From: a virus
Virus record (IMG/VR): IMGVR_UViG_3300017752_002639
Location: 7,919 to 71,918 of that record
Length of the DNA: 64,000 nucleotides
Reading direction: 5' to 3' (one strand)
Each line of letters begins with the position of its first letter. Position 1 is the stretch's first letter. The position numbers and the translations under genes were made by a program. Positions 1-64,000 of this stretch are shown one piece after another. The notes beneath the pieces are model-generated. The model was not told the origin of the DNA and ran no database searches. It saw nothing but the letters and a program-made list of their open reading frames with translations.

Positions 1-879
1 AGAGTAGTACCTTACGAAGTTGATGTATCAAATATTGCCGCACCTAGATCTAGTGTGTTGGCTACATTTACAAGACAAGCTAAAGCTATAAAATCATACA
101 ATTATATATACACTGGACAAAATACAGATATTATAGACTTTGATCTAAACTTTAACATGGCATTCTTTACAGGAGTGCAAGCTAATAGAGGTCAAAGACA
201 ACAAGATAGTTTATTTGCAACAGTATCGCAATGGGCAAAAGGTGATAGAGAAACTGCAACAACAACTGAAAGTGCAGTTGCATTGAGTCCTGCTGGCGCA
301 GACGGTGCGGCACCAATTAAAAATATTTCCGGTGCTGACAAACCAGCAAAAGGTGGCGGTGCAAAAGAAGGCGCATTAACTAGTCTTGCTAGAAACCTAA
401 ACAATATGGTTATACATAGTGATAATGATATGATTGGTGTTGATTTAACAATACATGGTGATCCTTATTTTCTAGCTGATGCAGGAATGGGTAATTATGT
501 AGGATTAGCTAATCCAGCAAACAATGCAATTACAATTGACGGATCAATGAATCCAATTGATGGCGAAATACACGTAGTGTTAAACTTTAGAACACCAATT
601 GATTATGATGACGAGTCTGGTTTTGTAAAATATCCACTAGGAGGCTTTTTGCCAATTGCAATGTTCAGCGGAGTATATCAAGTAATTTTAGTAGAAAACA
701 ATTTCAAAGACGGAATGTTTACACAAACACTAAAACTAATGAGAAAACGTAACCAGGATCTAACACTTAGTGCTATTGCAGGAGCGTTAATGGATACCAA
801 AGCTGGTAAAGCAATTGGTAAAGGTCTAAGCAAACACTTAATAGAACCAAAAGCAGATGGATTAGATGACACAACATGA
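1..879 (+). CDS. Tail/baseplate hub-type protein, C-terminal part (5' truncated by the window)
   Basis: Frame is open from base 1. 'VDLTIHGDPYFL' and the C-terminal 'GVYQVILVENNFKDGMFTQTLKL' resemble gp27/late-control-D hub proteins. Lies directly before the gp5-like gene. Confidence 0.55.
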   Translation, partial: RVVPYEVDVSNIAAPRSSVLATFTRQAKAIKSYNYIYTGQNTDIIDFDLNFNMAFFTGVQANRGQRQQDSLFATVSQWAKGDRETATTTESAVALSPAGADGAAPIKNISGADKPAKGGGAKEGALTSLARNLNNMVIHSDNDMIGVDLTIHGDPYFLADAGMGNYVGLANPANNAITIDGSMNPIDGEIHVVLNFRTPIDYDDESGFVKYPLGGFLPIAMFSGVYQVILVENNFKDGMFTQTLKLMRKRNQDLTLSAIAGALMDTKAGKAIGKGLSKHLIEPKADGLDDTT

Positions 880-2315
880 GTACTGATACTAGAACAAAAA
901 CCCAAGATAAAAACGACCCAGGCATTTACATTGGCGTTGTAGTAAATCATCTTGACACAACAATGATGGGTGGTGTAGAAGTTGAACTAACAAAACGCTC
1001 TAACAGTGGTAACTTAGTTGACTATGTACAATGTCACTATGCTAGTCCGTTTTTTGGAAGTACTCCTGCTAGTGGAATGTCTAAAAACGACGGCTATGCA
1101 GATACACAAAAAAGTTATGGTTTTTGGGCAGTACCTCCAGACATTGGTTCTAGAGTAATTGTTTTAATGCCAGAAGGTGATTTTTCAAGAGCATATTGGA
1201 TTGCATGTATTCCAGATACAGGCACTAACTTTATGACTCCAGGAAATGCGTCTACAACATTTAATAAAGACGATACAAGTGTAGCTTTGCCAGTTGGCGA
1301 ATATAACAAGTTACAAGAAAAAGGCGAAGGCGGAGATCCTACTAAATTTTTAAAGCCAGTTAATACTGTAGAAAAAGATCGTTTAGAAGCCGCAGGTCTT
1401 GACAAAGATCACATCAGAGGAACAAATACTTCAAGTGCAAGACGAGAAGCACCTAGTCATGTATTTGGATGGAGCTCACCTGGACCATTAGATATGAAAG
1501 GTCCAACACATTCTTATGGTAAACCAGGCAAACAAGTTAATAGACCGTTTAATAGATTAGGCGGTTCAAGTTTTGTAATGGACGATGGCGATCCTACATT
1601 AGTAAGAAAGAAACCAGCTAGGGGAGAAAAAGGCGTTGCTGGAAAAATGGAATACGCTAACGTAGATGCTAAAGAAACAGACGGGGACGATTTATATCCT
1701 GCAAGTGATTTAATGAGATTAAAGACTAGAAATGGTCATCAAATCTTAATGCATAATACAGAAGATCTAATTTATATTTCACATGGTAGTGGAAATAGTT
1801 GGATTGAAATGTCAGCAAATGGTAAAATTGATATCTATGCTAAAGATAGTATTAGTATGCGTTCAGAACAAGACATTAATTTTTATGCTGATAGAAACAT
1901 TAATTTTGAAGCAAAAAAAGATGTTAACATAACTAGTGGAGTAGACACATATATCCACGCAGTTGGAAATTGGAATATATTAGCAGATGTTGACGGCAAA
2001 CTTGCCGCAGTAGGTGATACTAATATTAATGCTGGTGGTGACCACAAAGAAACTACCAAAGGAAAAATATTTATGAATAGTTCTACTAGTGCTGATAAAG
2101 CGGGTAAAGCTAAAGTTCCAGTTCGTATTCCGGCACATGAGCCTTGGAGAGACCACGAAAACCTTGATCCTGAAAACTTCTTACCAGAAGAAACACAAGC
2201 AAAGAATATTGAGCTGGAAGAAGAAGACCCAAGACAAGGACTTTTTGATAACGGTACAACAGATGAAGCATCAGAATTTCCTAAGATTCCAGACACGTTT
2301 ATAAAGCAAACCTAA
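876..2315 (+). CDS. gp5/VgrG-like baseplate central spike, no lysozyme domain
   Basis: N-terminal OB-fold motif (YIGVVVNHLD...GFWAVPPDIGSRVIV...AYWIACIP), 'KTRNGHQILM' and beta-helix-like repeats; upstream of gp25-like gene. Confidence 0.8.
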   Translation: MSTDTRTKTQDKNDPGIYIGVVVNHLDTTMMGGVEVELTKRSNSGNLVDYVQCHYASPFFGSTPASGMSKNDGYADTQKSYGFWAVPPDIGSRVIVLMPEGDFSRAYWIACIPDTGTNFMTPGNASTTFNKDDTSVALPVGEYNKLQEKGEGGDPTKFLKPVNTVEKDRLEAAGLDKDHIRGTNTSSARREAPSHVFGWSSPGPLDMKGPTHSYGKPGKQVNRPFNRLGGSSFVMDDGDPTLVRKKPARGEKGVAGKMEYANVDAKETDGDDLYPASDLMRLKTRNGHQILMHNTEDLIYISHGSGNSWIEMSANGKIDIYAKDSISMRSEQDINFYADRNINFEAKKDVNITSGVDTYIHAVGNWNILADVDGKLAAVGDTNINAGGDHKETTKGKIFMNSSTSADKAGKAKVPVRIPAHEPWRDHENLDPENFLPEETQAKNIELEEEDPRQGLFDNGTTDEASEFPKIPDTFIKQT

Positions 2316-2317
2316 GG

Positions 2318-2323
2318 TAAATA
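2318..2323 (+). promoter_or_regulatory. T4-type late promoter core TAAATA, 4 nt before the gp25-like ATG
   Basis: GGTAAATACGATATG with no Shine-Dalgarno; the same motif recurs before other structural genes. Confidence 0.55.
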
Positions 2324-2327
2324 CGAT

Positions 2328-2777
2328 ATGAGCAGTTTAGAAAAAAGTTTATACAAAGAAATTAAAGTTAAATCTAATAACAATGCAGATCAGATTGCTG
2401 ATAGCGGTCCTACATATAAAGGATTTAGTACAGTAAACTCTGATTTAAATTCTCATGTATTATACGATATTGCTTTAATTAAACAAGACATTATTAATCA
2501 TTTTCATATTAGACAAGGCGAAAAACTGTCAGATCCTGAATTTGGCACTATTATATGGGACATTCTATTTGAACCATTAACTGAAGACGTTAAAAACGCA
2601 ATTATACAAAATGTATCTAGAATTGTAAACTACGATCCTAGAGTACAAGTTAATCAAATAACTGTTGATTCTTATGAAAGTGGTATCCTTGTTGAATGTG
2701 AATTAGCATACCTTACATACAGTATTGTTGAGAAGCTTCAGTTCAAGTTTGATGAGAACGCAGGCTTCCTACAATAA
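2328..2777 (+). CDS. gp25-like baseplate wedge protein (GPW/gp25 family)
   Basis: 'LIKQDIINHFHIRQGEKLSDPEFGTIIWDILFEP...YDPRV' is the typical gp25 signature; size 149 aa. Confidence 0.88.
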   Translation: MSSLEKSLYKEIKVKSNNNADQIADSGPTYKGFSTVNSDLNSHVLYDIALIKQDIINHFHIRQGEKLSDPEFGTIIWDILFEPLTEDVKNAIIQNVSRIVNYDPRVQVNQITVDSYESGILVECELAYLTYSIVEKLQFKFDENAGFLQ

Positions 2778-5800: not shown

Positions 5801-6414
5801 ACTATGGACAAGAATTAAACAAAATTAAATCACTCACAGATGAAATAATTTATCACCCAGTTAAATACAAAGTATTATTTGGAGAAGAGGCAGCCGACGA
5901 CTTGCAAGCTAAATTTAAAATTGTTAAAAATCCAGATAAAGTTATTAACGACAACGATATAAAAACTAAAGTTATAAATGCGATTAACGAATTTTTTGCA
6001 TTAGATAATTGGGACTTTGGCGAAACGTTTTACTTTTCAGAATTATCAAATTATGTAATGTCACAGTTAACTCCAGATGTATCAGCATTTGTTATTGTTC
6101 CTGTACAAGATGATCAAACATACGGATCATTACATGAAATAAAAGCAGAAGCAGACGAAATCTTTATTAGTGGTGCAATAGTTGATAACATTGATATTAT
6201 CGATGCTATTACAGCATCAAAACTAAAAGCACAAGGTTCAATAGTTTCTAAAGCAACAACAACAAACGTGGGTGTACAAAGTACAACCGTTGTAAGTAAT
6301 GCTGTAAATATTACAAATACAAACAGTAGTACAGCAAATAATAGTAGTTCTAGTAGCTCTAGTAGTTCTAGTAGCTCATCAAGCAGTTCAAGTAACGGAG
6401 GTTACAGTTACTAA
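2830..6414 (+). CDS. gp6-like baseplate wedge subunit with a C-terminal poly-Ser tail
   Basis: 'DFQSYDFDNLR...DFNDY...LIDLIAF...ENYLELAERRESVLRLARLLSYNP' and 'QNRMITGEDY' match gp6/baseplate-J proteins. Confidence 0.85.
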   Translation: MSSTDRQNRLLQTQDWKRVYQSFRNADFQSYDFDNLRRTMIQYLRENYPEDFNDYVESSEYLALIDLIAFLGQNISFRIDLNARENYLELAERRESVLRLARLLSYNPKRNQVANGLLKIDSVRTSEEIVDSNGTNLENQTIVWNDPANTNWYEQFIKVMNTALPVNGTYGRPNKKETISGISTEQYRFNSINDNVPTYSFNKVIDGRATKFEVVSTDVTTTILEEAPFPGNNFAFLYRDDGKGPSSNNTGFFSHFRQGILDHGTFSITNPSSNQTVAIETPNINNTDVWLYDLDSTGAEQELWTKVDSLEGNNIIYNSVQKNNRKIYSALTRVDDRVSLTFSDGTFGDLPKGNFKIYFRTGINQRVTVRPNDFRNITVNIPYLSKKGREERITIVYSLKYTVDNSSVSESTDNIKSRAPSTYYTQNRMITGEDYQVAPLSINQQIVKTKSVNRTSSGISRYFDLVDATGKYSQTTLYGNDGVVYKEYQNKIRSFTFTTRTDVEGAVENTLIPILQDTKVRNYYFDKFPRILTRDLNINWQQTTKETEYTTGYFSNVDSVPSTLGSFTSSILRLVTEGTLIKFVSPGFVAKTNPNDPDTSTDHFDKNGKLVSGPTSIVGDSYYKWVKVISINGTGFEQREDGQGAVILNEIVPTNAVLAEVKPPLANDLSTGVKQQLYDQIFAYKVFGLRFDQIDAQWKLVTENNLSIGSEFSTGKTGDTTNQQLDASWLMLFENNGETYTITFRSMRYVFESDNEIRFYYDSNDKIYNNKTGKIVKDTVTVLNINPKDPTSDPTPFTQDFKWEIVDAYKDAEGYVDSKKLEVSYYDDDEDGIVDDADLFDEIVAPTVNTTSKYIIFKKYITNDGVEDYNYFNNINNNIIVLNSKTNLKPFSEYNDGDIFYYIDQDIFEVLDLTALKLTLTTDYKARLGRDNIKFRYIHASGSESRIDPSASNIVDMYLLTRNYDNEFRLWLTQGATTKPLPQSSDQLFIDYGQELNKIKSLTDEIIYHPVKYKVLFGEEAADDLQAKFKIVKNPDKVINDNDIKTKVINAINEFFALDNWDFGETFYFSELSNYVMSQLTPDVSAFVIVPVQDDQTYGSLHEIKAEADEIFISGAIVDNIDIIDAITASKLKAQGSIVSKATTTNVGVQSTTVVSNAVNITNTNSSTANNSSSSSSSSSSSSSSSSSNGGYSY
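6343..6393 (+). repeat. Low-complexity Ser17 coding tract containing two near-identical 18-bp units
   Basis: agtagttctagtagctct / agtagttctagtagctca, followed by further Ser codons. Confidence 0.85.
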
Positions 6415-12400: not shown

Positions 12401-15400
12401 AGATATTATTGGTTTATATGATTTAATAGTTACTGATAAAACTACAGACGACAGTACGTTTCCAATAGCAACACAAACTACTGAGCCAGTTGAAGGATTT
12501 TATAAAGTACTTGCTGTTGCATTAAATCAGGTTGTAATTGAAACTAAAGAAGTTATCGAAGATATAATTTCATGTAATGGAATTATAACTAAGTTTATTC
12601 CTGTTAGAGTAGCAGACTTTCAAAGTGCAAACGTACTATCACAAAACGGTGTTGATAAAGGAACACGTATTTGGATTGACGAAGATGAAAACGGTGATTG
12701 GATAGTATTAGAAAATACACAACCGTTTAATTTATTACAAAAGATTCCAGCAGAAGATACTGGTGTTAATAATAACTTTGGACAATCATTAGCAATTGAT
12801 GGAAGAAATGTTACTATGGCATTAGCATCTCCAACTGCTGATGGTAACGGAAAAATATTTACATACACTAGAGGTGGACAAAATCAAAACTTCCAATTTA
12901 CACAACTTATTGAACCAGCAGATAATATATCATCAGGCGGAATGTCATTTGGTGAAGGCGTTGCAATAAGTGCAGACGGCAAATATATAGTAGCAGGTTC
13001 TCCTGATGCAGGCCAAGTAAAAAGTAAATTTAAAGGTAATTATAGTACAACAGCAGATTATGAAAATACTGAAGTTGTAAAATATGGTGATAGCTTATGG
13101 GAAGCAGTAGTCGACATTGATGGAGCAAAATCTGAACAACCGTTTGGTAGCTTTGGATCAATTATTGAAGTTATTCAAGATAACAATATCACATCCGGCG
13201 AAATAGTATTCAACAGTTTGTTAGCAGGTAATTATCCGTTTACAGATGTACCAGACGAAACAACAGGTCATATACTTGTTAGAGCACCTAAAGATGCATA
13301 CGTTGCTACAGGTCCGGGTGACACAGTATTTATGGATTGGTACTTAACAACAAGTGCTAACCAAGACGCACCAACTACTCCAAGACAACCATTCAATGGT
13401 ACCTTTGCAACTATTACTGAAGAGTTCTTAGAAAGAGGTCTACCAATAGTTAAAAAAGTTGATGCAGTATTATATATTAATAGTGTTAGTACTATTCCTG
13501 GAGATACATTACAAGTTGATACAGTAGGCGCAAGCGGATATGTTTCTTATACATACTCAGAAGGCGGCAGAGCTACAGTTTATGTAACAGGTTCAGTAGG
13601 CACTTGGCCAGTATCAGGTTCACTGTTTTTAGAAACAGGCGAGTTTGTTGGCGAATTCCAAAGAGTTGCGCCAGTTGAAGAATCAGTTGATACTAGTAAC
13701 GACTTAGGTGGCTATTGGTGGTTTGATACAGATGATCAATATACTGTAGCCCCAACTAACAGTGACGAAGGTAGAGCGTTAGCAATATACAATGTTATAC
13801 CAGCAGGGAAAGCTGATTCAGGTGGCACAGGCGGAAATGTTATTGACAATAAAAATGACGACATATTTGCTGGTGAAACAAGCCAACACTCATACATAAG
13901 AACATTATCATATGTAGGTACCCCAGGCGCATACGGACAGCTTGATCCTTTTGAAAGTGATTTATTTGTTATGCGAGCTCCTAAAACACTAACAGATAGT
14001 GTTACAGTAGGCGACACTATAGGGGTTGAAGTTTATAGACTACCAGCATATGCAGATGGTTCGTTTGTTGATATATCAACAATTGGATTATCACATTTAC
14101 AAACTAATAAAGATCATGAACTTGTAGCATTATGGGACGGTTACATTGACTTTGAATTAGAAGAAGGTGATAACTTTAATAGATTTGAACCAAAGGTTGG
14201 ACAGTTTGTTAGAGATAGAGTTACAGGCGCAACTGCTAAAGTAGAATTTTATCAAAGAAACAGTATCTATGCTACTATTTTTGTAAGCAATGTAGTTGGT
14301 ACTTGGCAACTTGGTAGTAAGTACGGCGAAGCTTCTGATATTGAAATGCTAGGTAATCCCAATGATCCAGATTTAACTTATCGAGTTACAAGAACATTAG
14401 GTGATATTAAAGCAACAGCACTTGGCAATGACACATATAACATTGGCAAACTTTGCGTATTTAGATTAGGCGGAGTTGTTAGCCCAGTTCCAGATACTGT
14501 TGAAAGAGGAGACTTTGACTTCCATGCCGCATCAGACATAATAGATGCAGAATATATTATCTATAAAGATACACAAATATTAGGCTTACCAACAAATCCA
14601 AATATTCCAGATCAAATTAACTTTGATTGGAAAGAAAGATTTAGTTTGCCTGTGGACGCTAACGGTGTTGCTAACGATTATGATAACTTTGGATTCTTTA
14701 CAGTATATGCAAGAGAAAGTATATCTACATTTACTCCAGTAGGATCATTTATATTCCCTGAAACAATAAATGGATTAGGAATTGGTAGTAAAATTAAAAT
14801 GGCAAAACGCAATGACTTGTATAAAACATTCATTGGTTGTCGAGGAAATGGAACTACTGCTAATCCTGGTAAAATATTCTTTGTAAACAAAGGCACTGAC
14901 GAAGAAGGTATTGAATATAATTGGGAACTTGCAAAAGATAAAAGATTCAAAGGTGAATTTGCACCTGAAAGAAATTACTATGTAAATGACATTGTATTCT
15001 TAGACGGTGAGTTTTATACAGCAAAAACAAATGTACAAGGCAATCCAACTACTCCAGACGATCCAGAAGCACAATTTAACATACTAGATTGGAACTTGTC
15101 AACTAATGACAATATTAGAAGCGTTGACTTTTTAGGTTATGTACCTAATGACACACAATACGTTCCAGGAAACGACAGTTCATTACAATTATCTACAACA
15201 GACTTAATTGAGTTTGGACAAGAGTTTGATGTAACAGACAACGGCGAAGTATTAGCAGTTGTTGCCAAGTATGCTAACGAGCCAAGTAGAGTAATTGTTT
15301 ATAGAAATCAAAATGACAACTATCAAAAATCACAAGAAATAGTTGATCCTCGATATGGCGATACTGAATACAAAGGTAACTGGGCAATTAACACAGCATA

Positions 15401-18400
15401 TGCAGTTAATGATATAGTGTTATGGGGAGAGTCAGATGTTGATGTTTACAATCCTAGTGTAACTGAAGTACTAAGAGAATACATATGTGTCACAGCACAT
15501 ACAAGTGGAACTGAAATTGGTTCAGATGTTAATAAATGGATTGAGTTTGATAGAACAGAATTTGCAAAAACAGTTAGCATTAGTCAAGACGGAAAATTAA
15601 TTGCAATAGGTGCACCTAATGGCGATACTACTATTGCTGAGTCTGGTAAAATTTATATTTACAAACAAGTTAATAGTACTTTTGAATTATCACAAACACT
15701 TGTAAGTGCAAATCCTATAAGAGGTGAATACTTTGGCGGAGAATTAGACTTCGACGGAAACACATTATTTGCAAGTGCATTTAATTCCGCAAGTGATGAC
15801 GTTACAAACTTTGATGGATTTAAAAACAGATTATATCCTGGAAGCACAACTCCAGGAAAACAGTATCTACTAGATACTGATAGTGAAATTGTATCTCCAA
15901 CAACATTCGATAATAAATTTACAACATTCCAAAACAAAATAGCAAGCAATGGTGTTGTGTATGTTTATGAAAAAATTAATGATACATTAGTCTTTGGTCA
16001 AACATTAGATTATAATGTTGCAGACGCAAAATTCTTTGGCAGAAATATTACTGCTCAAAACAATCACATTTATATGTCATTACCTAAGTTTAATAATGCT
16101 GATGGTAAACAAGGTCTTGTATTAGACTTTAATAAAGATATATCAAACAAAGTTTGGAAAGAACATAGAACTCCATCATTACCTGTTGATGTTTCTAAAA
16201 TCAAACGTGTTATGTTATACGACAAAGAAAAAAATGTTATTGTAACTAATCTAGATTATATTGCAGTATCACAAGGTAAAATTGCTGGGACTGCTGATGA
16301 AGAAATACGTTATAAAACATTCTTTGATCCAGCTACATATAATACTGGTATTAACACAGATATAAGAATAAATGAGCTAACAAACTGGGGCGAAAAACAA
16401 GTTGGTCAAGTTTGGTGGGATTTAACAGATGCTAAGTTTTATGATACTACTCAAGGAAGTATAATTTATAAAACAAATAACAATAATAAAATTGCTCCAG
16501 GTGGATCTATTGATGTATATGAATGGGTTGAAAGTACAGTAACTCCAGAACAATGGGATAAGATATCTTCACAGCCAGAAGGCGAAAGAAATGGTATAAC
16601 TGGTACAAGTAAATATGGCAATAATGGATATGTTGAAAAACGCATATATGATAAAATTGCACAAAAATTTGATAAGTTGTATTACTTCTGGGTAAAAGGT
16701 AAAACTAATGCACCTAATGTAGAAAATAGATCAATGAGTATACAAACTATTACATCGTTGATTGAAGATCCAAACGGATCGGGTTACAAGTTTGTGTCGT
16801 TCTATGACAATGGTGAAATGTCAATTCATAATTGTAAAAATTTAGTAAACAATAAAGATGTTGTTTTGAGTATACAGTATTGGACATTTAGTGAACCAGG
16901 TAGTAATATACACAATCAATATCAAATACTAACAGAAGGATTAGGTACAAGTGTGCCTTACGCAGAGATTGAAAATAAATGGATTGATAGTTTAGTTGGA
17001 TACGATAAACAATCAAGACCAGTTCCTGATACTAATCTTTCTCCGAGAGAACGTTATGGTATTTTAAATAAACCAAGACAAGGTTGGTTTATTAATAGAA
17101 CTGAAGCATTAAAACAACTTGTTGAAAGAGTTAATAATGTCTTTATAGATAATCTTATTGAAGAAGAAAAGAATTTAGTCAAGTTACAAGATACAGATCC
17201 TGCTCCAAGTCAAACACTAGGATTGTTTGATGTTACAGTTGACACTGAAATAGATTTACAATTTATTGGTGTTGCACGAGCGACAACTGCTCAAATTACA
17301 CCAGTTGTTGAAAACGGAAAAATTGTTAGATTAGAAATTAATAATCCTGGACGTGGATATAGAGTTGCGCCGTCTTATACTATAGAAGGTTCAGGTAGCG
17401 GTGCAGAATTTGAATTTACATTAGATAATTTAGGTAAAATTACAACTGCAACTGTAATAGAACAAGGCAACAACTACGGATCAAATACATTTATAACAGT
17501 ACGTCCGTTTGCGGCACTAGTAACGGCTGATAGTGCAATCAATGGTAAGTGGGCATTATTCAACAGAAATGCTACTACATCTAATTGGATTCGAATTAAC
17601 AGTCAAGCATATGATGTAACAAAGTTTTGGAATTATGTAGATTGGTATGCAACTGGTTATAATGCTTTTACAGAAATTGATTATGTAATTACGCAGAGCT
17701 ATGAATTAGAAAGTCTAGACGACAAATTTGGAGACGTTGTAAAAATTCTAAATATTGGCGGAGCTGGTTGGTTACTGCTAGAAAAAATTAATGATCTTGA
17801 CACTACTGACTATACTGTAAACTATAAAACTATTGGTAAGCAAAACGGCACAATTCAACTGTCGCAAAACTTGTACAACTTACAAAATAGTAGAGTAGGG
17901 TTTGATACTCAAACATTTGATACACAGTTCTTTGACAGTCAGCCAGTTGAAGAAATAAGAATTATAATGCAAGCATTAAAGCAAGATATTTTAACAGACG
18001 ATCTTCAAGATGAATATAATAAGTTATTTTTTGCAGGACTGCGCTATGTGTTTGCAGAACAAGGTTATGTTGACTGGGCATTTAAAACAAGTTTTGTTAA
18101 AGCAAAACATAATGTTGGTAACTTAACACAACGAGTTACATTTAAAAATGATAGTCTTGAAAGTTACGAAGATTATATACAAGAAGTTAAACCATACACA
18201 ACAACAATTAGAGAGTACCTATCAACATATGATAATGTAGAACGTAGTTCAAGTGTTATTACTGATTTTGATAGCCCTCCAAGTTACGACAATACGTCAA
18301 CTACAATTGAAACTAATAACATACGTTTAATTAACGGACTGCTTACAGGTGATAGCGGCGATCGCTTTGCTAATTATCCAGAAAGATATTGGTTAGAAAA

Positions 18401-22745: not shown

Positions 22746-24839
22746 ATGTCATATACGATTACTTACACAGACCAAGCAAACAACGGAACAATTACTGTTG
22801 AAGATGGTACAATTAACCGTACTACATCGCTAGGACTGCCAGGACGTAACACTACAGCATACGGTGCAACTATTGCAGAAAACTTTTTACATTTATTAGA
22901 AAACTTTTCATCAACAACAGCACCAGATAATCCTTCAGAAGGACAAACATGGTATGATAATACAAATGGTTCTGAAAGTTTAAAAGTATATAACGGTACT
23001 AACTGGGTTCCAGCAAGTGGAATTACAAAATCAATTTCAACACCAGCACTAGCACAAACAGGTGACCTATGGGTTGACACAGATAACCAGCAACTATACT
23101 TGTTTACAGGTGGTGGTTGGATCTTAGTAGGACCTAGCTTTTCAGAAGGCTTGTCCACAGGTGCAAGAGCAGATCAAATTATTGGACAAGACAATAAACT
23201 ATACACAGTTCTAAGAATAGAAGTAGCAGGTTCAACAGTTGGTATTGTAAATGGTTCCGATAGTAGTTTTATTCCAAAAACAACTATTGCAGGCTTTGCT
23301 CAAATTAATCCTGGATTTAACTTAATTAATAGAGATACAGACTCCGATGGTCTAAGTAACTTTAAATTCTTTGGTACTGCTGAAAAAGCAGAAAGTTTAA
23401 TTGTTAATAATGAAGTTATTGCGGCTGCCGATTTCCTTAGAGGCGACACTACAAGTACTACACTATTTCCGTTAAATGTTCAAAATAACCAAGGTATCAA
23501 CTACGGTATTAACGGCGAGCTAACAGTAGGAGTTGAAGGCAATGCAGGTATTCTTCAACATAACGTTGGCGGTTCAAATATTGACTTGCGTGTACGTAAT
23601 GAAAATACTACAAGAACTGTTATACGTGTTGACTCAAACTTACGTGTTGGTATTAACACAGAAGCACCAGATGAAGCATTAGATGTTGTAGGTAATATAC
23701 AGTCGAGTGGTAAAGTTATTGTTAACGATACTACAACTAGTTCTACTATTAACAACGGTGCATTACAAGTACGTGGTGGCGCAGGTATTAGACAAACATT
23801 AAATGTTGGCGGAGCAACTAAATTACTAGACTTGCTAACAACAACTAATGTTGTACCAGACGATAATAACATTAGAGATATTGGTTCTGCTACAGTTAAA
23901 TATAAAAATGTGTATGCTACAACATTTACTGGTAACGTAGTAGGTAATGTTAGTGGTACAATTACAGGACGTAGTACAGAGTCAGATAAACTTACAGATA
24001 AGACTACGTTTATTATGGAAGGCGATGTTGCTACTATTGTTCCTGTAGAATTTGATGGCTCATTCCAAGATCCAAGTTTTAATAACGGTGAAGATGCAAA
24101 TGGCGATCCGTTACCAGCAGGTGAACAACCACTACAGAAAAAATTCCGTACAGAAATTTCAAACTCGTTTATTGGTAGCAAAACTGCAATAACTGAAGTA
24201 TTAGGCAGTGATGAATTACTAGTTAACCAAGTGTCAGGAGCGGCACCAGGGTTGAAACGAGTAACTAAACAAAACTTATTAAAAACAATTCCAATTAATC
24301 CGCCAGGCGTAATGATGCCATATGGTGGAGATAGTGCGCCAGCAGGTTGGCTACTATGTAATGGTCAAGAAGTAGAACGTGAAGACTATCAATTATTATT
24401 TGATGCAATTAAATTTAAATTTGGTGCTGAGTCTCAAGTAACAGCAGGATACTTTAAAGTCCCTGACATGAGAGGGCGTATACCACTTGGTGCTGATAAC
24501 ATTGGCGGAACAAGTGCAAACATTGTTACAGCAGGCGCCGCAGATATTATTGGTGCGTTATCGGGTACAGAAACAAAAATTATTGATATTACTAATGTAC
24601 CAGAACACTTACACAGTTTAAAAGATGCTGATAACAACCAATTTTATGCAGTACAAGATAGAATTGATCCAACTACTGATACTAATGCTACAATAGTAGA
24701 TGCTCCAACTGCAACTGGACAAGGGCAACAGTTACAAAACAGTGGTGGTATTATTAGTCAAAACGATGTAGGGCAACCTTTAGATATTATGCCTCCTACA
24801 GTAACTATGAACTATATCATCTATACCGGAAGAGAATAA
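22746..24839 (+). CDS. Tail fibre with C-terminal phage tail-collar domain (gp12-like)
   Basis: 'PPGVMMPYGGDSAPAGWLLCNGQ...FKVPDMRGRIPLG' is the tail-collar motif; N-terminal module shared with the next two genes. Confidence 0.8.
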   Translation: MSYTITYTDQANNGTITVEDGTINRTTSLGLPGRNTTAYGATIAENFLHLLENFSSTTAPDNPSEGQTWYDNTNGSESLKVYNGTNWVPASGITKSISTPALAQTGDLWVDTDNQQLYLFTGGGWILVGPSFSEGLSTGARADQIIGQDNKLYTVLRIEVAGSTVGIVNGSDSSFIPKTTIAGFAQINPGFNLINRDTDSDGLSNFKFFGTAEKAESLIVNNEVIAAADFLRGDTTSTTLFPLNVQNNQGINYGINGELTVGVEGNAGILQHNVGGSNIDLRVRNENTTRTVIRVDSNLRVGINTEAPDEALDVVGNIQSSGKVIVNDTTTSSTINNGALQVRGGAGIRQTLNVGGATKLLDLLTTTNVVPDDNNIRDIGSATVKYKNVYATTFTGNVVGNVSGTITGRSTESDKLTDKTTFIMEGDVATIVPVEFDGSFQDPSFNNGEDANGDPLPAGEQPLQKKFRTEISNSFIGSKTAITEVLGSDELLVNQVSGAAPGLKRVTKQNLLKTIPINPPGVMMPYGGDSAPAGWLLCNGQEVEREDYQLLFDAIKFKFGAESQVTAGYFKVPDMRGRIPLGADNIGGTSANIVTAGAADIIGALSGTETKIIDITNVPEHLHSLKDADNNQFYAVQDRIDPTTDTNATIVDAPTATGQGQQLQNSGGIISQNDVGQPLDIMPPTVTMNYIIYTGRE

Positions 24840-42055: not shown

Positions 42056-42061
42056 ATATAA

Positions 42062-51951: not shown

Positions 51952-53200
51952 ACTCTGGGTTAGATGTAAGGAAGTCTTGATTACGTGTTTTATCTAAACG
52001 CTTGTTAAACTCTATACAGTCTTGCCAATGTGTTTTGTACATACACTTTGCTTCTAAGAAATTTATGTTGTCTTGTATTTGTTGTAGAGTTACTGTCTTT
52101 AGTAACTCGTGTTCTTTTACTAAAGGATAATCTAACACAGTTTCTTTCATTGCTTCTAATTTAGCAATAACTTGTTCCTTTAGTTCAGGCGGCAGTACTT
52201 GTGCTGATAGCGACATAGGATAATTTACTCTATGTGAATAAAATATAATTCCCATTGTATTAATAAAGTAATCAATTACTTTGTCTATTTGCATAATGTT
52301 GTTTGCTTGTACAGTAAATGCACCTACTACTCTACTTACATTAGGAAAGCTCTTAAACACTTTAATGTTTTCTTCTATTTCAGCAAACTTACCATTGCCT
52401 CTAATGTATTCATATGTGTCGTGTATGCCGTCTATGCTTACGTTTACAGCAATGCTTTTAAACTTAGGCCAATAGTCGTGTATTGTTCTTCCGCCTTTAA
52501 TACCTAGCGTAGTACCGTTTGTAGCGTACTTTAGTTCTATGTTGTCACCATACTCTGCAAGTTTATCTAGTATCTTATAATGGTATGGATCCATTAGCGG
52601 CTCACCACCTGCAAATTCTACACGTCTAAAGAACGGTAGTAGCTTTTCAAAACTTGCCCACCAGTTATCTGAGTTATCAAACGGTCCAATATATTGCCCT
52701 GGTTTGTCTACTAGTGCATCAACAGTTGGTATAAGATAATTGTTTTCTTTCTTGTAAAATTCTGTTACTTGATCCCAATCTTTCCAGCTTGTACTGTCCA
52801 AAGGATTACACATACGACACTTTAAATTACACAAGTTATTGAGCTTAATTTCCATTGTAGGAAACTCAAAAGGCATGCTGTAATCGTCGTCTAAAGCGTC
52901 TAATGCATCAGGGTATAAGTTGACCCTAGCTTCAGGTATTACCCCTGCTGTATGACGCTGTCGTAAGCTCTGTACACCCTGATCTTCAAGGTCAAAGCAC
53001 GGTTTACATACATCAGGACGTTCGTCATTTAGTACTTGTCTACGCACTTCTTTCATAGCATCGTTGTTCCATGCTTCTTCCAAAGTTTCTTTTTGTATCC
53101 AACCAATAGGTTGACTGCGACAGCATACTTTGATAGCACCATCTTCTCTTGTAGCCAATCCTGTAAACGGATGCATACAAAATGTACAACTCTTATGCAT
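51935..53200 (-). CDS. Radical SAM enzyme 13, N-terminal twitch domain (CC type)
   Basis: CNLKCRMC, FAGGEP; FCMHPF...VCC...CKPC. Confidence 0.88.
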   Translation of the reverse strand: MHKSCTFCMHPFTGLATREDGAIKVCCRSQPIGWIQKETLEEAWNNDAMKEVRRQVLNDERPDVCKPCFDLEDQGVQSLRQRHTAGVIPEARVNLYPDALDALDDDYSMPFEFPTMEIKLNNLCNLKCRMCNPLDSTSWKDWDQVTEFYKKENNYLIPTVDALVDKPGQYIGPFDNSDNWWASFEKLLPFFRRVEFAGGEPLMDPYHYKILDKLAEYGDNIELKYATNGTTLGIKGGRTIHDYWPKFKSIAVNVSIDGIHDTYEYIRGNGKFAEIEENIKVFKSFPNVSRVVGAFTVQANNIMQIDKVIDYFINTMGIIFYSHRVNYPMSLSAQVLPPELKEQVIAKLEAMKETVLDYPLVKEHELLKTVTLQQIQDNINFLEAKCMYKTHWQDCIEFNKRLDKTRNQDFLTSNPEFAPYV

Positions 53201-53873
53201 TATCTATTCCCCATTGTCGTTCCTTACACCAAAAACATTCTCCGCACTGTGGTACAAACATGCCTGGCTTATATGTAGTATAATCTAAATTATCAAACTC
53301 GCCTTCGCAACTACGAGTAATATTTAACAACTCTTTGATGCCGTTATCGTAATATTGTTTTATGATCCAGTTCTTCTTAGTATACACGAAAGGATGACAA
53401 ATGTCAACTCCATTATGAACAAAATGTGGAGCAATATGTCCTTCGTCACGTTCTGCAACTTTGCCAGGAATATCAATATCTGGATTCATATTTACTCCTG
53501 CATAAAGTGCATCTAAATTATGCTTGTGTGCAATATACTCGTTATGTGAACGTAGTATAATTCTATTGCCCGACTTCATTTTTCCGTACTCATCTTTAAT
53601 AAGATATTCTGTAGGCTCTTCTAATTCAGGCGGGACTAAATTTTTATGTACATAAAACTTATGATCAAAATTATCTTTAAACCATGCAACTACATTGTCA
53701 GCAATATGTTCTGCCCACGGTCGTGTTTTCCATAAACGTATTTGTATATTAAAATGTATTTCTGTAGTTGAACTTACGTTTTTACATATTAAATATGCAA
53801 GCAATGCACTGTCAGCACCGCCACTAAGACTAATACCTATACGCCGCCAATCAGAATTCAAGTATAGTTCCAT
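53193..53873 (-). CDS. QueC-like PP-loop ATP pyrophosphatase (7-cyano-7-deazaguanine synthase-like)
   Basis: 'ISLSGGADS' PP-loop and C-terminal 'TRSC...CGECFWCKER' zinc site. Confidence 0.7.
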   Translation of the reverse strand: MELYLNSDWRRIGISLSGGADSALLAYLICKNVSSTTEIHFNIQIRLWKTRPWAEHIADNVVAWFKDNFDHKFYVHKNLVPPELEEPTEYLIKDEYGKMKSGNRIILRSHNEYIAHKHNLDALYAGVNMNPDIDIPGKVAERDEGHIAPHFVHNGVDICHPFVYTKKNWIIKQYYDNGIKELLNITRSCEGEFDNLDYTTYKPGMFVPQCGECFWCKERQWGIDNA

Positions 53874-56479: not shown

Positions 56480-57092
56480 CTTGTTCCTTTAATGATCTCT
56501 TTACTAACTTTAAATATTCTGGTGTACTATCGTAATGATGTATAATCAAATGATATCTATCTTCTTGGCTAGGATTAACTACACTATGCTCGTAACTTAG
56601 ATTCATTGCATACACATCGCCTGGATTAAATTCTAATGTTTCTCCGTCTTGCCATTTCCATACACAGTCTTTAGGATTAGTTATAGCAATATTAATAGCA
56701 CCTAGTACACTATGTTCTGTATCTGTATGTGGTTCAATAACACCACCTGCTTCTAATAGCATTACTCTTGTACGACCATAACTACTGCTTGGGTATACTT
56801 CTTGTAACCATTTTTTAGTTACAGGACATAGTTCTGCTATATCTGTCCATTGCATATCAGGTGCGGCGGCTCTTGCATCTTTATAATTGTATACGTTCCA
56901 TGCATACGGTTCTGTACTAGATTTACCTACTATTGGTAAACTTGCCCAGCCCTGTGTTTTATATGTTGACCTATACTCTACAAATTTATTCTTTAAATTA
57001 ATAATTTCATTATACGCTTCTTTGTGCGGAAAATTAATATTTAATTTGAGATATTTTAGATCGCTTACTAGATACTCACGTCCTTCAAACAT
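56439..57092 (-). CDS. 2OG-Fe(II) oxygenase (Asp/Asn beta-hydroxylase-like)
   Basis: 'GGVIEPHTD...EHSVVN...DRYHLIIH'. Confidence 0.75.
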   Translation of the reverse strand: MFEGREYLVSDLKYLKLNINFPHKEAYNEIINLKNKFVEYRSTYKTQGWASLPIVGKSSTEPYAWNVYNYKDARAAAPDMQWTDIAELCPVTKKWLQEVYPSSSYGRTRVMLLEAGGVIEPHTDTEHSVLGAINIAITNPKDCVWKWQDGETLEFNPGDVYAMNLSYEHSVVNPSQEDRYHLIIHHYDSTPEYLKLVKRSLKEQDAKGIFHYSTELF

Positions 57093-60101: not shown

Positions 60102-60104
60102 AAA

Positions 60105-62300: not shown

Positions 62301-62544
62301 TGGCTTTCTCCTGTGTCGCATCTTCTTTAGGTGCGTTCTCTTGCTGTTGCTTTTGCACGGCCGCTAAGAAAGTGTCTAGTTTGGTATATACTTGACCAAC
62401 TGTCATCATTTCGTTAGGTTTAAATGCACCGCGTTGACTTGCAACATCAATGATTTGTTTAATAGATCCTAGATCTTGTACTGTTAACTCTGCAGGCGCT
62501 TGTTCGGCTTTATTATCTACAGTGTTAGTTGTTTCTTCAGACAT
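62293..62544 (-). CDS. Hypothetical small protein
   Basis: AAGGAG ribosome-binding site; late-promoter core at 62580-62585 upstream. Confidence 0.7.
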   Translation of the reverse strand: MSEETTNTVDNKAEQAPAELTVQDLGSIKQIIDVASQRGAFKPNEMMTVGQVYTKLDTFLAAVQKQQQENAPKEDATQEKANG

Positions 62545-62579
62545 TGTGTTCTCCTTAATAACTTAATAAAGTACGTATA

Positions 62580-62585
62580 TATTTA
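62580..62585 (-). promoter_or_regulatory. Late promoter core TAAATA overlapping the stop codon of 62583-62861
   Basis: Minus strand AAGTAAATATATAC upstream of the 62544 gene. Confidence 0.45.
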
Positions 62586-62861
62586 CTTGTATTTTAAATG
62601 TGGACACGCCAAAGTGAAATAAGATAGTTCTTTTGGTTCTTCAAAACCTATGCGTAAAAACGGAACTACTTTATCTTCACTGTCGATATCCAATGTTCTA
62701 CCTATGTAGAACCTGTGTTTCATGTGCATTTCAATCCACTTAGCAATAGCACCATCAGTGTTATATGGTACTGGTATAGTCATGTATTCAAAGTGCTTTG
62801 GGGGCTTTGAAACTTGACGTATGCCAAATAAATTTAATGCGTTAGGTGTTTTTAACTTCAA
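62583..62861 (-). CDS. Hypothetical protein
   Basis: 92-aa ORF coupled (ATGA overlap) to the VWA gene. Confidence 0.65.
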   Translation of the reverse strand: MKLKTPNALNLFGIRQVSKPPKHFEYMTIPVPYNTDGAIAKWIEMHMKHRFYIGRTLDIDSEDKVVPFLRIGFEEPKELSYFTLACPHLKYK

Positions 62862-64000
62862 GCCGCGACCTCATAATGTGCAGTTTGACCAAATGGTGCC
62901 TGTAAGTTTTTATCACGGTTTGAATGAATAACAAAGACTGTATCACAGTAGTCTGGATCGCCCCAGCTATCCCATGCATAGCCATCTGTAAACATAATGA
63001 GTTTCTTAGGAACATAATTCTGTTCTTTCATGTATGTCCAATTAGCCATAAAGTCAGTACCGCCACCACCAAAGATTTCGTATTCAGTTAGGTCTTCACC
63101 ACCGTCTGCTGTAAAATCTTTTTCATTGTATACCGCAGTATCAAAACACCATACTTTAATTTTATAGTCTTGGTATTCATCCATAATGCCTTTAATTTCG
63201 CCTAAGAAGTCTTCGCCTTGTTTTGTTCCAATTGAACCAGACATATCAATTGCAATAGCAACATCAATTGTTTGTGCAAAATTCATACTAGGTAATACTG
63301 CACCTGTCATTTGTGCTTTACGTGAAGGACGACTAAATGTGTAATCGCTTTTAATAGTTGACTGTATTTGCTCACGTAGCAATTCACGCCAGTTCATTTT
63401 AGGTTCTGTAAGTTCTTTGATCATACGTGCAACGCCAGACGGAATATTTCCTGCACCAGCAGTTTGTGCGGCACTTATCATATTCTCTTTTATTTCGTCT
63501 TTGATCTTTTTCATTTCTTCTTTAGAGTACTTTGGCTTTTTCTTAGAAACGTTGTTGCCGTTTGCATCAGTTTCTTCGCCATTGTCATTATCTGCACCTG
63601 ACGATCCATCTTCTTTACCGTCTAAGTGTTCGTCTAACATTTCGCCAAGTTGGTCTAAAAAGTCCTGTCCTTGCTGTTTTGCAATTTCAAACAGTTCGTC
63701 ATATATTTCTTCAGACGTCCATTCTTCGTATTTAAAGTCTTGATAGCAATCAATAAAGCTAGGCTTAGTACCAATACGATCACGCATTAGTGTATTGTTT
63801 ACTTTATAGTCAGCGGCAATATTATAAAGCATAGGATGTCGATCGCCTCTACGTGTAAGGTGATCAAATACCATATGTAAAATTTCGTGTGCAATAACAA
63901 ATTCAATTTCTTTGTTATTCATTGCGTTAAAGAATTGTGTATTATAATAAAGGTTGCGTCCGTCTACAGCCGCAGTGCCTAACCAATCATCAGCGGCAAG
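62858..64000 (-). CDS. VWA-like domain / HExxH putative metallopeptidase (DUF2201-type), 5' truncated by the window
   Basis: 'VIAHEILH', 'YNIAADY', MIDAS 'IDMSGS', 'GGGTDF', 'FTDG'; frame is open to base 64000. Confidence 0.8.
   Translation of the reverse strand, partial: LAADDWLGTAAVDGRNLYYNTQFFNAMNNKEIEFVIAHEILHMVFDHLTRRGDRHPMLYNIAADYKVNNTLMRDRIGTKPSFIDCYQDFKYEEWTSEEIYDELFEIAKQQGQDFLDQLGEMLDEHLDGKEDGSSGADNDNGEETDANGNNVSKKKPKYSKEEMKKIKDEIKENMISAAQTAGAGNIPSGVARMIKELTEPKMNWRELLREQIQSTIKSDYTFSRPSRKAQMTGAVLPSMNFAQTIDVAIAIDMSGSIGTKQGEDFLGEIKGIMDEYQDYKIKVWCFDTAVYNEKDFTADGGEDLTEYEIFGGGGTDFMANWTYMKEQNYVPKKLIMFTDGYAWDSWGDPDYCDTVFVIHSNRDKNLQAPFGQTAHYEVAA

What the first reader, a model, noticed from the sequence alone, without database searches (positions are those of the whole stretch)
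1..64000. Near-complete avoidance of GCWGC, with Ala-Ala codon pairs recoded; the only survivors are GGCWGCC
Seen: isolated Ala codons here are mostly GCA/GCT. Yet of about 57 Ala-Ala steps I read by hand, 54 use GCC or GCG first (for example GCC GCG GCC at ~39,691 and GCC GCC GCT at ~42,188). A by-eye scan found only three GCWGC sites, at 5890, 23424 and 27455, and all three sit in G-GCWGC-C. Roughly 30-35 would be expected from base composition (my estimate). GATC, GANTC, GGCC, CCGG, CCWGG, GGWCC and GCSGC are all present. Established: GCWGC is the TseI/ApeKI target and GCAGC the BbvI target. Inference: there is strong selection from a host restriction or methylation system, or from a phage nuclease/modifier that spares its own genome. 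It also suggests that the island does not give blanket DNA protection at this site.
Basis: partly seen in the sequence, partly recalled or inferred. Interest (0 to 1): 0.75.

Follow-up and report, generated by a model that had tools for sequence, protein, structure and literature searches.

The report
Purged restriction sites expose DNA modification
A widespread marine giant phage has erased nearly every copy of the restriction target GCWGC, and the few survivors sit in a flank context that suggests part of its guanines are chemically modified, which can be tested directly.

Summary
The window has three GCWGC sites (5890, 23424, 27455). The 79-kb contig has five, and all five read GGCWGCC. Synonymous-codon shuffles predict 72.6 ± 4.3 sites, and GCSGC is correspondingly in excess (104 against 31).

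GCWGC purging alone is ordinary restriction-site avoidance. This scan has already noted it in at least 19 other genomes.

What is new is the flank rule.
- In this contig, all 9 survivors of GCWGC, AAGCTT and GTGCAC are G|site|C. Both CTGCAG survivors are Y|site|R.
- Across 119 related marine jumbo-phage sequences (2.4 Mb), purging of GCWGC, GCGC, AGCT, AAGCTT, GTGCAC, CTGCAG, CGCG and CATG spares sites where a 5'-G-purine-3' step straddles the site edge.
- Palindromes with an internal GA or GG are almost never purged (8 events in 1429 tests, against 140 in 2257).

Best reading: the phage family modifies G in a GR context, as 9g and CAjan do at GA and GGC. Only sites the modification cannot shield were removed by selection.

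A conserved TGT/DpdA-fold gene lies 2.4-9.2 kb upstream of FolE plus a QueE-like gene in all 33 relatives that cover that region. The query contig ends just short of it. The modification and the host are inferred, not shown.

The parts
1..64000 (.). Domain of GCWGC purging. It covers the whole window and the whole 79-kb contig.
   Evidence: Contig: 5 sites observed against 72.6 expected under codon shuffling. It is the most depleted palindrome (z about -15.7). GCSGC is in compensating excess (104 against 31).
5889..5895 (.). Surviving site GGCAGCC, in frame as Ala-Ala (GCA GCC) inside ORF 2830-6414.
   Evidence: Context AG|GCAGC|CG.
23423..23429 (.). Surviving site GGCTGCC in the tail-fibre-like ORF 22746-24839 (Collar domain).
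   Evidence: Context CG|GCTGC|CG. No difference at this site is listed among the contigs of four seawater runs; the nearest listed change is 23432 T>C.
27454..27460 (.). Surviving site GGCAGCC in ORF 26789-28312.
   Evidence: Context CG|GCAGC|CA. No difference is listed at this site.
2732..2739 (.). Surviving AAGCTT, flanked G|AAGCTT|C.
   Evidence: AAGCTT in the contig: observed [0,0,3], expected [12.6,8.4,0.9]. The third survivor lies at contig 7638, outside the window.
14328..14335 (.). Surviving AAGCTT, flanked G|AAGCTT|C.
15609..15616 (.). The only surviving GTGCAC, flanked G|GTGCAC|C.
   Evidence: Observed [0,0,1], expected [3.7,4.2,0.9].
62489..62496 (.). Surviving CTGCAG, flanked T|CTGCAG|G, so the terminal G is followed by a purine on both strands.
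   Evidence: CTGCAG with 5'Y/3'R flanks: observed [0,0,2], expected [4.6,12.6,5.8]. The other survivor is at contig 7728, outside the window.
53193..53873 (-). QueC-like PP-loop protein inside the radical-SAM island. It could be a 7-deazaguanine pathway step, but its link to DNA modification is unproven.
   Evidence: PF06508, 24.5 bits against a cut-off of 22; only a weak TilS-N hit in NCBIfam.

Best explanation
There are two layers.

(1) Classical restriction-site avoidance. The hosts of this uncultured marine jumbo myovirus (PA5oct / Atu_ph07 supergroup) carry a nuclease that cuts GCWGC, of TseI / ApeKI / BbvI specificity. Selection removed about 68 sites from the 79-kb contig. Most were removed by writing Ala-Ala as GCS-GCN. 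The same happened to CTGCAG, AAGCTT, CTTAAG and GTGCAC.

(2) The survivors are shielded, not accidental.
- Inference: the phage family replaces or modifies G where it is followed by a purine (5'-GR-3', about 36-43% of its guanines).
- A site escapes cleavage when such a step straddles its edge. For sites that begin with a purine (GCWGC, GCGC, AGCT, AAGCTT, GTGCAC) this means G|site|C. For sites that end in G (CTGCAG, CGCG, CATG) it means Y|site|R.
- Sites with an internal GA or GG (GATC, GGCC, CCGG, CCWGG and others) are always shielded and never need purging.
- Enzymes differ in how much shielding stops them. This gives three states among relatives for GCWGC: no site tolerated; sites with one shielded edge tolerated; or, as in this contig, only sites shielded on both strands (GGCWGCC).

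The candidate machinery is a divergent TGT/DpdA-fold transglycosylase encoded next to FolE and a QueE-like radical-SAM enzyme. That would make the modification a 7-deazaguanine, as in phages 9g and CAjan, whose motifs are GA and GGC.

Shown: the statistics, the flank rule, the fold and its synteny in relatives.
Inferred: that a modification exists, its chemistry, that the query genome carries the gene, and the identity of the host enzyme.

The confidence of 0.6 is for the combined reading (restriction avoidance plus shielding by a context-specific DNA modification). Restriction avoidance alone is about 0.85. A 7-deazaguanine installed by the TGT-like protein is about 0.45.
For: **Avoidance**
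- Depletion against composition, Markov and codon-shuffle nulls.
- Relatives are sharply split. Among 80 loci centred on the gp46-like gene, 58 have O/E near 1, 13 have no GCWGC, and 7 keep flanked sites only.
- The trait needs at least about 9-10 changes on the gp46 tree.
- L085 is a mosaic, with an 11.7-kb site-free core between flanks that carry sites.

**Flank rule is sharp.** Classes are [no shielding flank, one, both], observed against expected.
- EUL_C3 (148 kb): [11,112,25] against [157,117,18].
- L146, L147, L019, L021, L029: one-flank O/E about 1, unflanked 0.
- MED685_C3: [0,0,0] against [66,24,3].
- RS350 (335 kb): [0,32,3] against [319,90,7].

**The same rule holds at other sites.**
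- GCGC in RS350: [0,111,15] against [136,136,14].
- Pooled GCGC: [0,178,21] against [249,247,24].
- AGCT in L055, L096, L097: unflanked 0, flanked near expectation. Flank pairs A/T, C/G and T/A give no exemption at these sites.
- With 5'Y/3'R flanks: CTGCAG [0,1,15] against [42,70,29]; CGCG [0,13,19] against [31,81,39]; CATG [1,0,7] against [69,112,50].
- With G/C flanks: AAGCTT [3,11,5] against [128,80,6.7]; GTGCAC [0,4,4] against [40,35,8].

**Internal GA/GG.** Strong purging occurs in 8 of 1429 tests for palindromes with an internal GA or GG, against 140 of 2257 for G-containing palindromes without one. For sites of 5 nt or fewer the counts are 3 of 1187 against 86 of 1620.

**Machinery**
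- FolE: PF01227, E 8e-37.
- Adjacent QueE-like protein: NCBIfam QueE models at E 1e-11, and phmmer against 9g QueE at 2e-9.
- The 509-aa ORF L088:2112-3641 has an invariant GDSGGFQ motif.
- Its AF2 model has pLDDT 83.9.
- The top 50 Foldseek hits are all tRNA-guanine transglycosylase, E about 3e-6.
- VIA-align gives archaeosine TGT Z 18.6, QTRT2 17.6, bacterial TGT 16.6 and the DNA preQ0 insertase DpdA (7ui4) 15.2. Generic TIM barrels reach at most 11.7.
- The gene is present in 33 of 33 loci with at least 8 kb upstream of FolE, and in RS350.

**Precedent.** CAjan carries dPreQ0 at GA and GGC, and this blocks EcoRV and HaeIII (PMC7544227). As a control on 9g, all nine fully purged 6-bp palindromes lack GA and GGC.

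**No methyltransferase or hydroxymethylase.** No C5, N4/N6 or Dam methyltransferase and no ThyA-type hydroxymethylase was found on the phage contigs.
Against: - No modification has been measured. Everything rests on sequence statistics.
- The TGT-like gene is not on the query contig, which stops about 100 bp past FolE. Its presence there is inferred from synteny.
- The TGT-like protein has no Pfam TGT or DpdA hit and no PDB sequence hit. hhalign against 9g DpdA finds nothing.
- No QueD was found. The only QueC-like gene sits in an unrelated-looking island.
- The gene is present in relatives of every class. It therefore cannot by itself explain the differences between classes, which must be assigned to different host enzymes.
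- CAGCTG does not follow the rule clearly.
- GG|site contexts are not exempt. This is unexplained.
- One-flank sites in RS350 are about 3-fold depleted.
- The excess of purging among sites without an internal GR is confounded by which enzymes the unknown hosts happen to have.
Confidence: 0.6

Rival explanations
1. The avoidance is real, but the flank rule belongs to the nucleases and not to the phage DNA. On this reading the host enzymes recognise longer degenerate sites (HGCWGCD; GCWGCD on either strand; HGCGCD; HAGCTD and so on). Sites next to the disfavoured base are simply not substrates.
For: - Outer B/D/H/V positions are common in methylome-derived motifs, for example HCAGCTKC, BGMAGCTGD and TANGGAB in PMC6329791.
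- The three GCWGC states (none tolerated, one flank, both flanks) map directly onto three recognition sets.
- One genome can purge every GCWGC yet tolerate flanked GCGC, as MED685_C3 does.
- The TGT-like gene is present in all classes.
Against: - At least eight unrelated target sequences would need enzymes that share one rule.
- The exempting flank also switches side with the site's end bases: 5'G for sites that begin with a purine, 3' purine for sites that end in G. A single GR context explains this; independent enzymes do not.
- This reading does not explain why palindromes with an internal GA or GG are almost never purged.
Confidence: 0.17
2. A nuclease encoded by the phage itself, used for host-DNA degradation or as a homing-type enzyme, cuts GCWGC. 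The phage spares its own genome by lacking the site.
For: - The contig encodes a SegE-like GIY-YIG endonuclease and SbcCD-like nucleases.
- The patchy distribution on the tree could follow a mobile gene.
Against: - No gene near gp46 or FolE tracks the trait. The ORF clusters found only in avoiders are antisense artefacts of the recoding.
- Several different palindromes are purged in different combinations among relatives. That is the pattern expected from varied host restriction repertoires.
- SegE-type enzymes are not short-palindrome cutters (my own knowledge).
Confidence: 0.06
3. The cause is mutational rather than selective. For example, methylated GCWGC decays by deamination, or the depletion is a codon-pair bias unrelated to nucleases.
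For: GCWGC methylation exists in aquatic bacteria: m4C in Chloroflexi (PMC6329791 and PMC8919816).
Against: - The sites are replaced mainly by GCSGC and other synonymous variants, not by deamination products.
- All three reading frames are purged.
- The loss is complete and depends on flank context.
- Relatives with the same codon usage have O/E near 1.
Confidence: 0.02

Closest known systems
Restriction-site (palindrome) avoidance in lytic dsDNA phages
   Same: - A short palindromic Type II target is strongly under-represented against a codon-preserving null.
- It is removed by synonymous recoding.
- Several sites are purged, and the set varies between relatives.
- GCWGC is the TseI/ApeKI target (PMC3643589, PMC4926085).
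   Different: - The survivors obey a strict context rule, shared by eight different sites.
- Relatives fall into discrete states (none, one-flank, two-flank tolerated) rather than a gradient.
7-deazaguanine DNA modification of Queuovirinae (9g dG+, CAjan dPreQ0) by DpdA at GA and GGC
   Same: - Partial, context-specific replacement of G that blocks restriction enzymes (PMC7544227).
- FolE and a QueE-type enzyme are encoded beside a TGT-superfamily protein.
- The inferred context here (G followed by A or G) overlaps GA and GGC.
- In 9g, too, the fully purged palindromes are ones that lack the motif.
   Different: - The TGT-like protein is 509 aa and has no detectable sequence similarity to 9g DpdA or to the Pfam TGT/DpdA models.
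- No QueD was found and QueC is doubtful.
- The context appears broader: G|GT also shields, whereas GGT sites were cut in CAjan.
- The phages are jumbo myoviruses from seawater, not siphoviruses.
- The modification itself is unverified.
TseI / ApeKI (GCWGC) and BbvI (GCAGC) restriction enzymes
   Same: The purged word equals their recognition sequence. GCSGC is spared, which excludes GCNGC enzymes of the Fnu4HI and BisI type.
   Different: - The host and its enzyme are unknown.
- Avoidance cannot distinguish a palindromic cutter from a Type IIS enzyme.
- No flank dependence is documented for these enzymes in the papers read.

Membership tests
Restriction-site avoidance | Under-representation that survives a null preserving protein sequence and codon usage | tested here: met
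   5 observed against 72.6 +/- 4.3, minimum 60 in 500 shuffles; the most depleted of all 4-6 bp palindromes.
Restriction-site avoidance | The word is the target of known restriction enzymes | tested here: met
   GCWGC is the TseI/ApeKI target, as stated in PMC3643589 and PMC4926085.
Restriction-site avoidance | The trait varies with lineage or host among close relatives | tested here: met
   discrete states, and at least about 9-10 changes on the gp46 tree.
Restriction-site avoidance | A cognate restriction system in the host | not testable with these tools
   The host is unknown. The MAG bins holding related contigs carry inconsistent taxon labels, which points to mis-binning.
TGT / DpdA superfamily (509-aa protein of relatives, L088:2112-3641) | TGT-type TIM-barrel fold | tested here: met
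   the top 50 Foldseek hits are all TGT, probability 1.0. Z 18.6, 17.6, 16.6 and 15.2 (DpdA 7ui4), against at most 11.7 for other TIM barrels.
TGT / DpdA superfamily (509-aa protein of relatives, L088:2112-3641) | Conserved catalytic-loop motif DSGG(F/Y)Q | tested here: met
   G100, D101, S102, G103, G104 and Q106 are invariant in 24 homologues of 41-86% identity. The equivalence to the TGT Asp102 loop is from my own knowledge; the Y106F mutant titles are consistent with it.
TGT / DpdA superfamily (509-aa protein of relatives, L088:2112-3641) | Match to the family's sequence models (PF01702, PF23859) | tested here: not met
   no hit up to E = 5; no PDB sequence hit; no similarity to 9g DpdA; language-model features only (0.94 to a TGT-like cluster, 0.89 to a DpdA cluster).
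TGT / DpdA superfamily (509-aa protein of relatives, L088:2112-3641) | Encoded in the query genome | tested here: inconclusive
   The contig is about 21% of a genome and ends about 100 bp beyond FolE. The gene is present in 33 of 33 relatives that cover the region.
7-deazaguanine (preQ0/CDG) biosynthesis set FolE-QueD-QueE-QueC | FolE | tested here: met
   (L002:6708-7397, minus strand).
7-deazaguanine (preQ0/CDG) biosynthesis set FolE-QueD-QueE-QueC | QueE | tested here: inconclusive
   L002:5581-6474 (minus strand) matches five QueE models at E 1e-11 to 7e-8, all far below the curated cut-offs. phmmer against 9g QueE gives 2.4e-9.
7-deazaguanine (preQ0/CDG) biosynthesis set FolE-QueD-QueE-QueC | QueD and QueC | tested here: not met
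   No QueD was found. The only QueC-like PP-loop protein lies in the radical-SAM island, and its NCBIfam match is merely TilS-like.
Context-specific DNA base modification | A modified nucleoside actually present in virion DNA | not testable with these tools
   Only assembled contigs of public runs were available.

The most novel reading that the evidence does not exclude
A cosmopolitan family of marine jumbo phages carries a context-specific guanine modification at 5'-GR-3'. It is probably a 7-deazaguanine, installed by a previously unrecognised DpdA-like clade. The motif can be read from sequence alone, because restriction sites survive only where the modified step straddles the site edge. 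If so, 'shielded-survivor footprints' would be a general way to find DNA modifications and their motifs in uncultured viruses.
Probability: 0.45. Interest if true: 0.82.

Novelty: new variant of a known kind. Interest (0 to 1): 0.68.

Why it matters
GCWGC avoidance by itself is textbook. The flank rule turns it into a measuring device.

The pattern of which restriction sites survive predicts three things without any wet-lab data:
- the phage DNA is partly modified;
- the sequence context of the modification is G followed by a purine;
- a candidate enzyme set exists: a TGT/DpdA-fold protein, FolE and a QueE-like enzyme.

If this is confirmed, it has three consequences.
- It extends deazaguanine-type DNA modification to an abundant group of ocean jumbo phages. 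Near-identical copies of this phage occur in seawater and virome data from 14 studies, 2017-2025.
- It adds a divergent DpdA clade that sequence models miss.
- It offers a purely computational screen for modification motifs in the millions of uncultured viral contigs.

The rule also shows how modification and site avoidance divide the anti-restriction work within one genome.

Tried and rejected
- **DNA search for relatives.** blastn of window 22746-28312 against the phage collection found nothing. Protein-level searches were needed.
- **Genes private to avoiders.** The avoider-only ORF clusters near gp46 are low-complexity antisense frames created by the GC-rich recoding.
- **Canonical modification genes.** No PF01702 TGT in the contig or in five large IMG/VR relatives. 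No C5, N4/N6 or Dam methyltransferase and no ThyA-type hydroxymethylase on the phage contigs. phmmer with 9g DpdA, QueD, gp06 and gp07 found nothing; FolE and QueE did match.
- **BisI-family idea.** I had recalled NhoI as GCWGC-specific. PMC4926085 shows these enzymes cut GCNGC, and GCSGC is enriched here, so I dropped this.
- **Host from mis-binned contigs.** Labels ranged from Neomarinimicrobiota and Crocinitomicaceae to Legionellales, Bifidobacterium and Haliscomenobacter, so they are not usable. The window has no tRNA genes.
- **Chloroflexi as host.** Their GCWGC m4C methylase is an orphan with no partner nuclease. This is only a lead.
- **gp46 alignment for recoding.** The gene has too few GCWGC sites even in normal relatives. 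I used whole-locus alignments instead: 23 of 113 aligned positions are GCSGC in the query.
- **Extra context at position -2.** At first it looked no different from normal relatives. Pooled data later showed that GG|site is not exempt. This remains unexplained.
- **4-bp test alone.** GGCC is never purged, but neither are GATC and CCGG, so this was uninformative by itself.
- **Population SNPs.** 1 of 40 listed variants (27124 A>G, with changes listed at 27118 and 27121 in the same two runs) would create an unflanked GCWGC. The chance rate is about 0.7% per substitution. This is too weak to use.

Full report
**1. The observation**

- GCWGC occurs three times in the window, at 5890, 23424 and 27455. 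All three read GGCWGCC.
- GCSGC occurs 82 times.
- The window is bases 7919-71918 of a 79,098-bp linear IMG/VR contig. CheckV puts it at about 21% of a genome.
- The whole contig has five GCWGC sites, and all five are GGCWGCC.

Expected numbers:

| Null | Scope | Expected GCWGC |
|---|---|---|
| Base composition | window | 36.8 |
| Maximal-order Markov | window | 58.1 |
| 500 synonymous-codon shuffles within genes | contig | 72.6 ± 4.3, minimum 60 |

GCSGC in the contig is 104, against 31.4 ± 4.9 under the codon shuffles. The missing GCWGC sites are therefore almost exactly matched by extra GCSGC sites.

The codon-level description also holds.
- 93% of isolated Ala codons are GCA or GCT.
- 93% (69 of 74) of Ala codons followed by another Ala are GCC or GCG.
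- The five exceptions are the five surviving sites.
- The other two reading frames are purged as well.

**2. What the contig is**

The contig is a fragment of a jumbo myovirus.
- It encodes baseplate and tail proteins, an SbcCD-like gp46/gp47 pair and a 5230-aa ORF.
- It carries a roughly 20-kb island with more than 15 radical-SAM enzymes, plus FolE and a 5'-3' exonuclease.
- The nearest cultured relatives are Pseudomonas phage PA5oct (51% identity in gp46), Sinorhizobium phage Phosso and Agrobacterium phage Atu_ph07.
- Hundreds of uncultured relatives at 75-83% gp46 identity exist in IMG/VR.
- Near-identical sequence is present in seawater and virome data from 14 studies between 2017 and 2025.
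- The host is unknown.

**3. GCWGC purging is a switchable trait**

Among 80 loci centred on the gp46-like gene:

| State | Loci |
|---|---|
| O/E about 1 | 58 |
| No GCWGC at all | 13 |
| Only sites with a 5' G or a 3' C | 7 |
| Low counts, not classified | 2 |

- About 35 of 80 FolE-centred loci also have no GCWGC.
- On the gp46 tree the trait needs at least about 9-10 changes.
- One relative, L085, is a mosaic with an 11.7-kb site-free core.
- This contig also purges CTGCAG, AAGCTT, CTTAAG and GTGCAC (O/E 0-0.13). Relatives purge different sets.
- No methyltransferase and no nuclease gene that tracks the trait was found on phage contigs, including a 335-kb near-complete relative.

This is the classical signature of host restriction. 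The scan has reported GCWGC avoidance before, in at least 19 other genomes. One follow-up judged it ordinary.

**4. The flank rule**

Sites are classed as [no G/C flank, one, both] and compared with codon shuffles.

| Sequence | Observed | Expected |
|---|---|---|
| Query contig | [0,0,5] | [57.8,13.4,1.5] |
| RS350 (335 kb) | [0,32,3] | [319,90,7.4] |
| EUL_C3 (148 kb) | [11,112,25] | [157,117,18] |
| MED685_C3 | [0,0,0] | [66,24,3] |

- Several smaller loci have unflanked sites at 0 and one-flank sites at O/E about 1.
- The states are therefore qualitative, not a gradient.

The same exemption appears at other targets.

| Site | Where | Observed | Expected |
|---|---|---|---|
| GCGC | RS350 | [0,111,15] | [136,136,14] |
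| GCGC | pooled | [0,178,21] | [249,247,24] |
| AGCT | L055 | [0,9,1] | [31.5,12.7,1.4] |
| AAGCTT | pooled | [3,11,5] | [128,80,6.7] |
| GTGCAC | pooled | [0,4,4] | [40,35,8] |

- AGCT in L096 and L097 behaves like L055. Other loci have no AGCT at all.
- Other flank pairs (A/T, C/G, T/A) give no exemption for GCWGC, GCGC or AGCT.

For palindromes that end in G, the exempting flank is instead 5' pyrimidine and 3' purine.

| Site | Observed | Expected |
|---|---|---|
| CTGCAG | [0,1,15] | [42,70,29] |
| CGCG | [0,13,19] | [31,81,39] |
| CATG | [1,0,7] | [69,112,50] |

Within the query contig:
- all 9 survivors of GCWGC (5), AAGCTT (3) and GTGCAC (1) are G|site|C;
- both CTGCAG survivors are Y|site|R.

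One statement covers every case. A site is spared when a 5'-G-purine-3' step straddles its boundary, on one strand or on both depending on the site and the lineage.

**5. Complementary evidence**

Every strongly purged palindrome lacks an internal GA or GG. Strong purging here means O/E ≤ 0.15 with at least 6 sites expected.

| Palindrome class | Events / tests | Sites of ≤5 nt |
|---|---|---|
| G-containing, no internal GR | 140 / 2257 | 86 / 1620 |
| Internal GA or GG | 8 / 1429 | 3 / 1187 |

- GATC, TCGA, GGCC, CCGG, CCWGG, GGWCC and GAATTC are never purged in 119 sequences.
- This is suggestive but confounded by the unknown host enzyme repertoire.

As a control I used phage 9g. Its close relative CAjan is documented to carry a deazaguanine at GA and GGC (PMC7544227); that 9g's dG+ sits at the same motifs is from my own recollection. 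In 9g, the nine 6-bp palindromes that are completely purged all lack GA and GGC.

**6. Candidate machinery**

- FolE lies at the contig end (L002:6708-7397, minus strand).
- The adjacent 297-aa protein is QueE-like. The matches are weak but consistent.
- In relatives, 2.4-9.2 kb upstream of FolE, there is a 509-aa ORF present in 33 of 33 loci that reach that far, and in RS350.
- This ORF has no Pfam or PDB sequence match.
- It has an invariant GDSGGFQ motif and a confident AF2 model (pLDDT 83.9).
- Foldseek matches only tRNA-guanine transglycosylases in its top 50.
- An independent all-against-all alignment ranks archaeosine TGT (Z 18.6), QTRT2 (17.6), bacterial TGT (16.6) and the DNA preQ0 insertase DpdA (15.2) well above generic TIM barrels (≤ 11.7).
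- Its neighbours include a GT4-like glycosyltransferase, a purine phosphoribosyltransferase and a HIT protein.
- QueD was not found. The only QueC-like gene (window 53193-53873) lies in the radical-SAM island.
- The query contig stops about 100 bp past FolE. The gene's presence in this genome is therefore an inference from synteny.

**7. Interpretation**

- Most likely (about 0.6): the phage family modifies G in a GR context. The modification blocks most restriction enzymes whose sites contain or abut such a G. Sites that cannot be shielded were removed by selection wherever the host carries the matching enzyme.
- The GGCWGCC survivors are sites shielded on both strands. The enzyme met by this lineage evidently still cuts sites that are shielded on one strand only.
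- That the modification is a 7-deazaguanine made by the TGT-like protein is plausible (about 0.45) but unproven.
- The main rival is flank specificity of the enzymes themselves. It would require at least eight unrelated specificities to share one context rule, with the exempting side depending on the site's end bases.

**8. Unexplained points**

- GG|site contexts are not exempt.
- One-flank sites in RS350 are about 3-fold depleted.
- CAGCTG does not follow the rule clearly.
- GGCWGCC in the query is mildly enriched (5 against 1.5).

**9. Verdict**

GCWGC avoidance itself is a known kind of feature. The survivor rule, the DNA modification motif it implies and the divergent DpdA-like gene form a new and testable variant.

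Noticed in passing
window 6414-22106 (+): A single 5230-aa ORF. Contigs of public runs show many internal skips and joints when laid on it, which suggests repeat-length variation between strains.
   Followed up: no
window 33862-53200: An island with at least 15 radical-SAM (many with SPASM) enzymes on both strands. It is followed by Asp/Asn beta-hydroxylase-like oxygenases (53901-57092) and a QueC-like PP-loop protein. It looks like a peptide or glycan tailoring pathway. I found no evidence that it acts on DNA.
   Followed up: partly
L001:790-1530 (-) and L001:126-575 (-), contig start: A porphobilinogen deaminase (hemC-like auxiliary gene, E 6.5e-57) lies next to a SegE-type GIY-YIG homing endonuclease.
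   Followed up: no
window 60164-61312 (-): A protein with the Mtd_N major-tropism-determinant N-terminal domain (E 3e-14). It may be a target protein of a diversity-generating retroelement. I did not look for a reverse transcriptase or template repeat.
   Followed up: no
L085:3335-15022: An 11.7-kb stretch free of GCWGC lies between flanks that carry normal site density. This indicates recombination between avoiding and non-avoiding lineages.
   Followed up: partly
Pooled family sequences: When the shielding flank G is itself preceded by G (GG|site), the exemption fails. GG|GCWGC is 7 against 65 expected, and GG|AGCT is 9 against 132. This hints that the modified motif is H-G-R, or that adjacent Gs cannot both be modified.
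   Followed up: partly
G006:C57 (L189-L205) and G006:C77: A GTDB species-representative MAG labelled Candidatus Neomarinimicrobiota (RS350) contains a 335-kb near-complete jumbo-phage contig. A second contig of 153 kb has a 21.8-kb region around the gp46-like gene with the same composition and site counts. This is likely mis-binning or duplication.
   Followed up: partly
119 family sequences: AGCT is purged in 21 of 119 sequences, AAGCTT in 17 of 29 testable, CTGCAG in 12 of 39 and CATG in 7 of 119. Combinations differ between relatives. This is a possible read-out of host restriction repertoires in the ocean.
   Followed up: partly
window 62858-64000 (-) and L002:586-1674 (-): A DUF2201 metallopeptidase/VWA-like protein sits next to a MoxR-type AAA ATPase. 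The ATPase gene contains the two GGCWGCC sites that lie outside the window.
   Followed up: no
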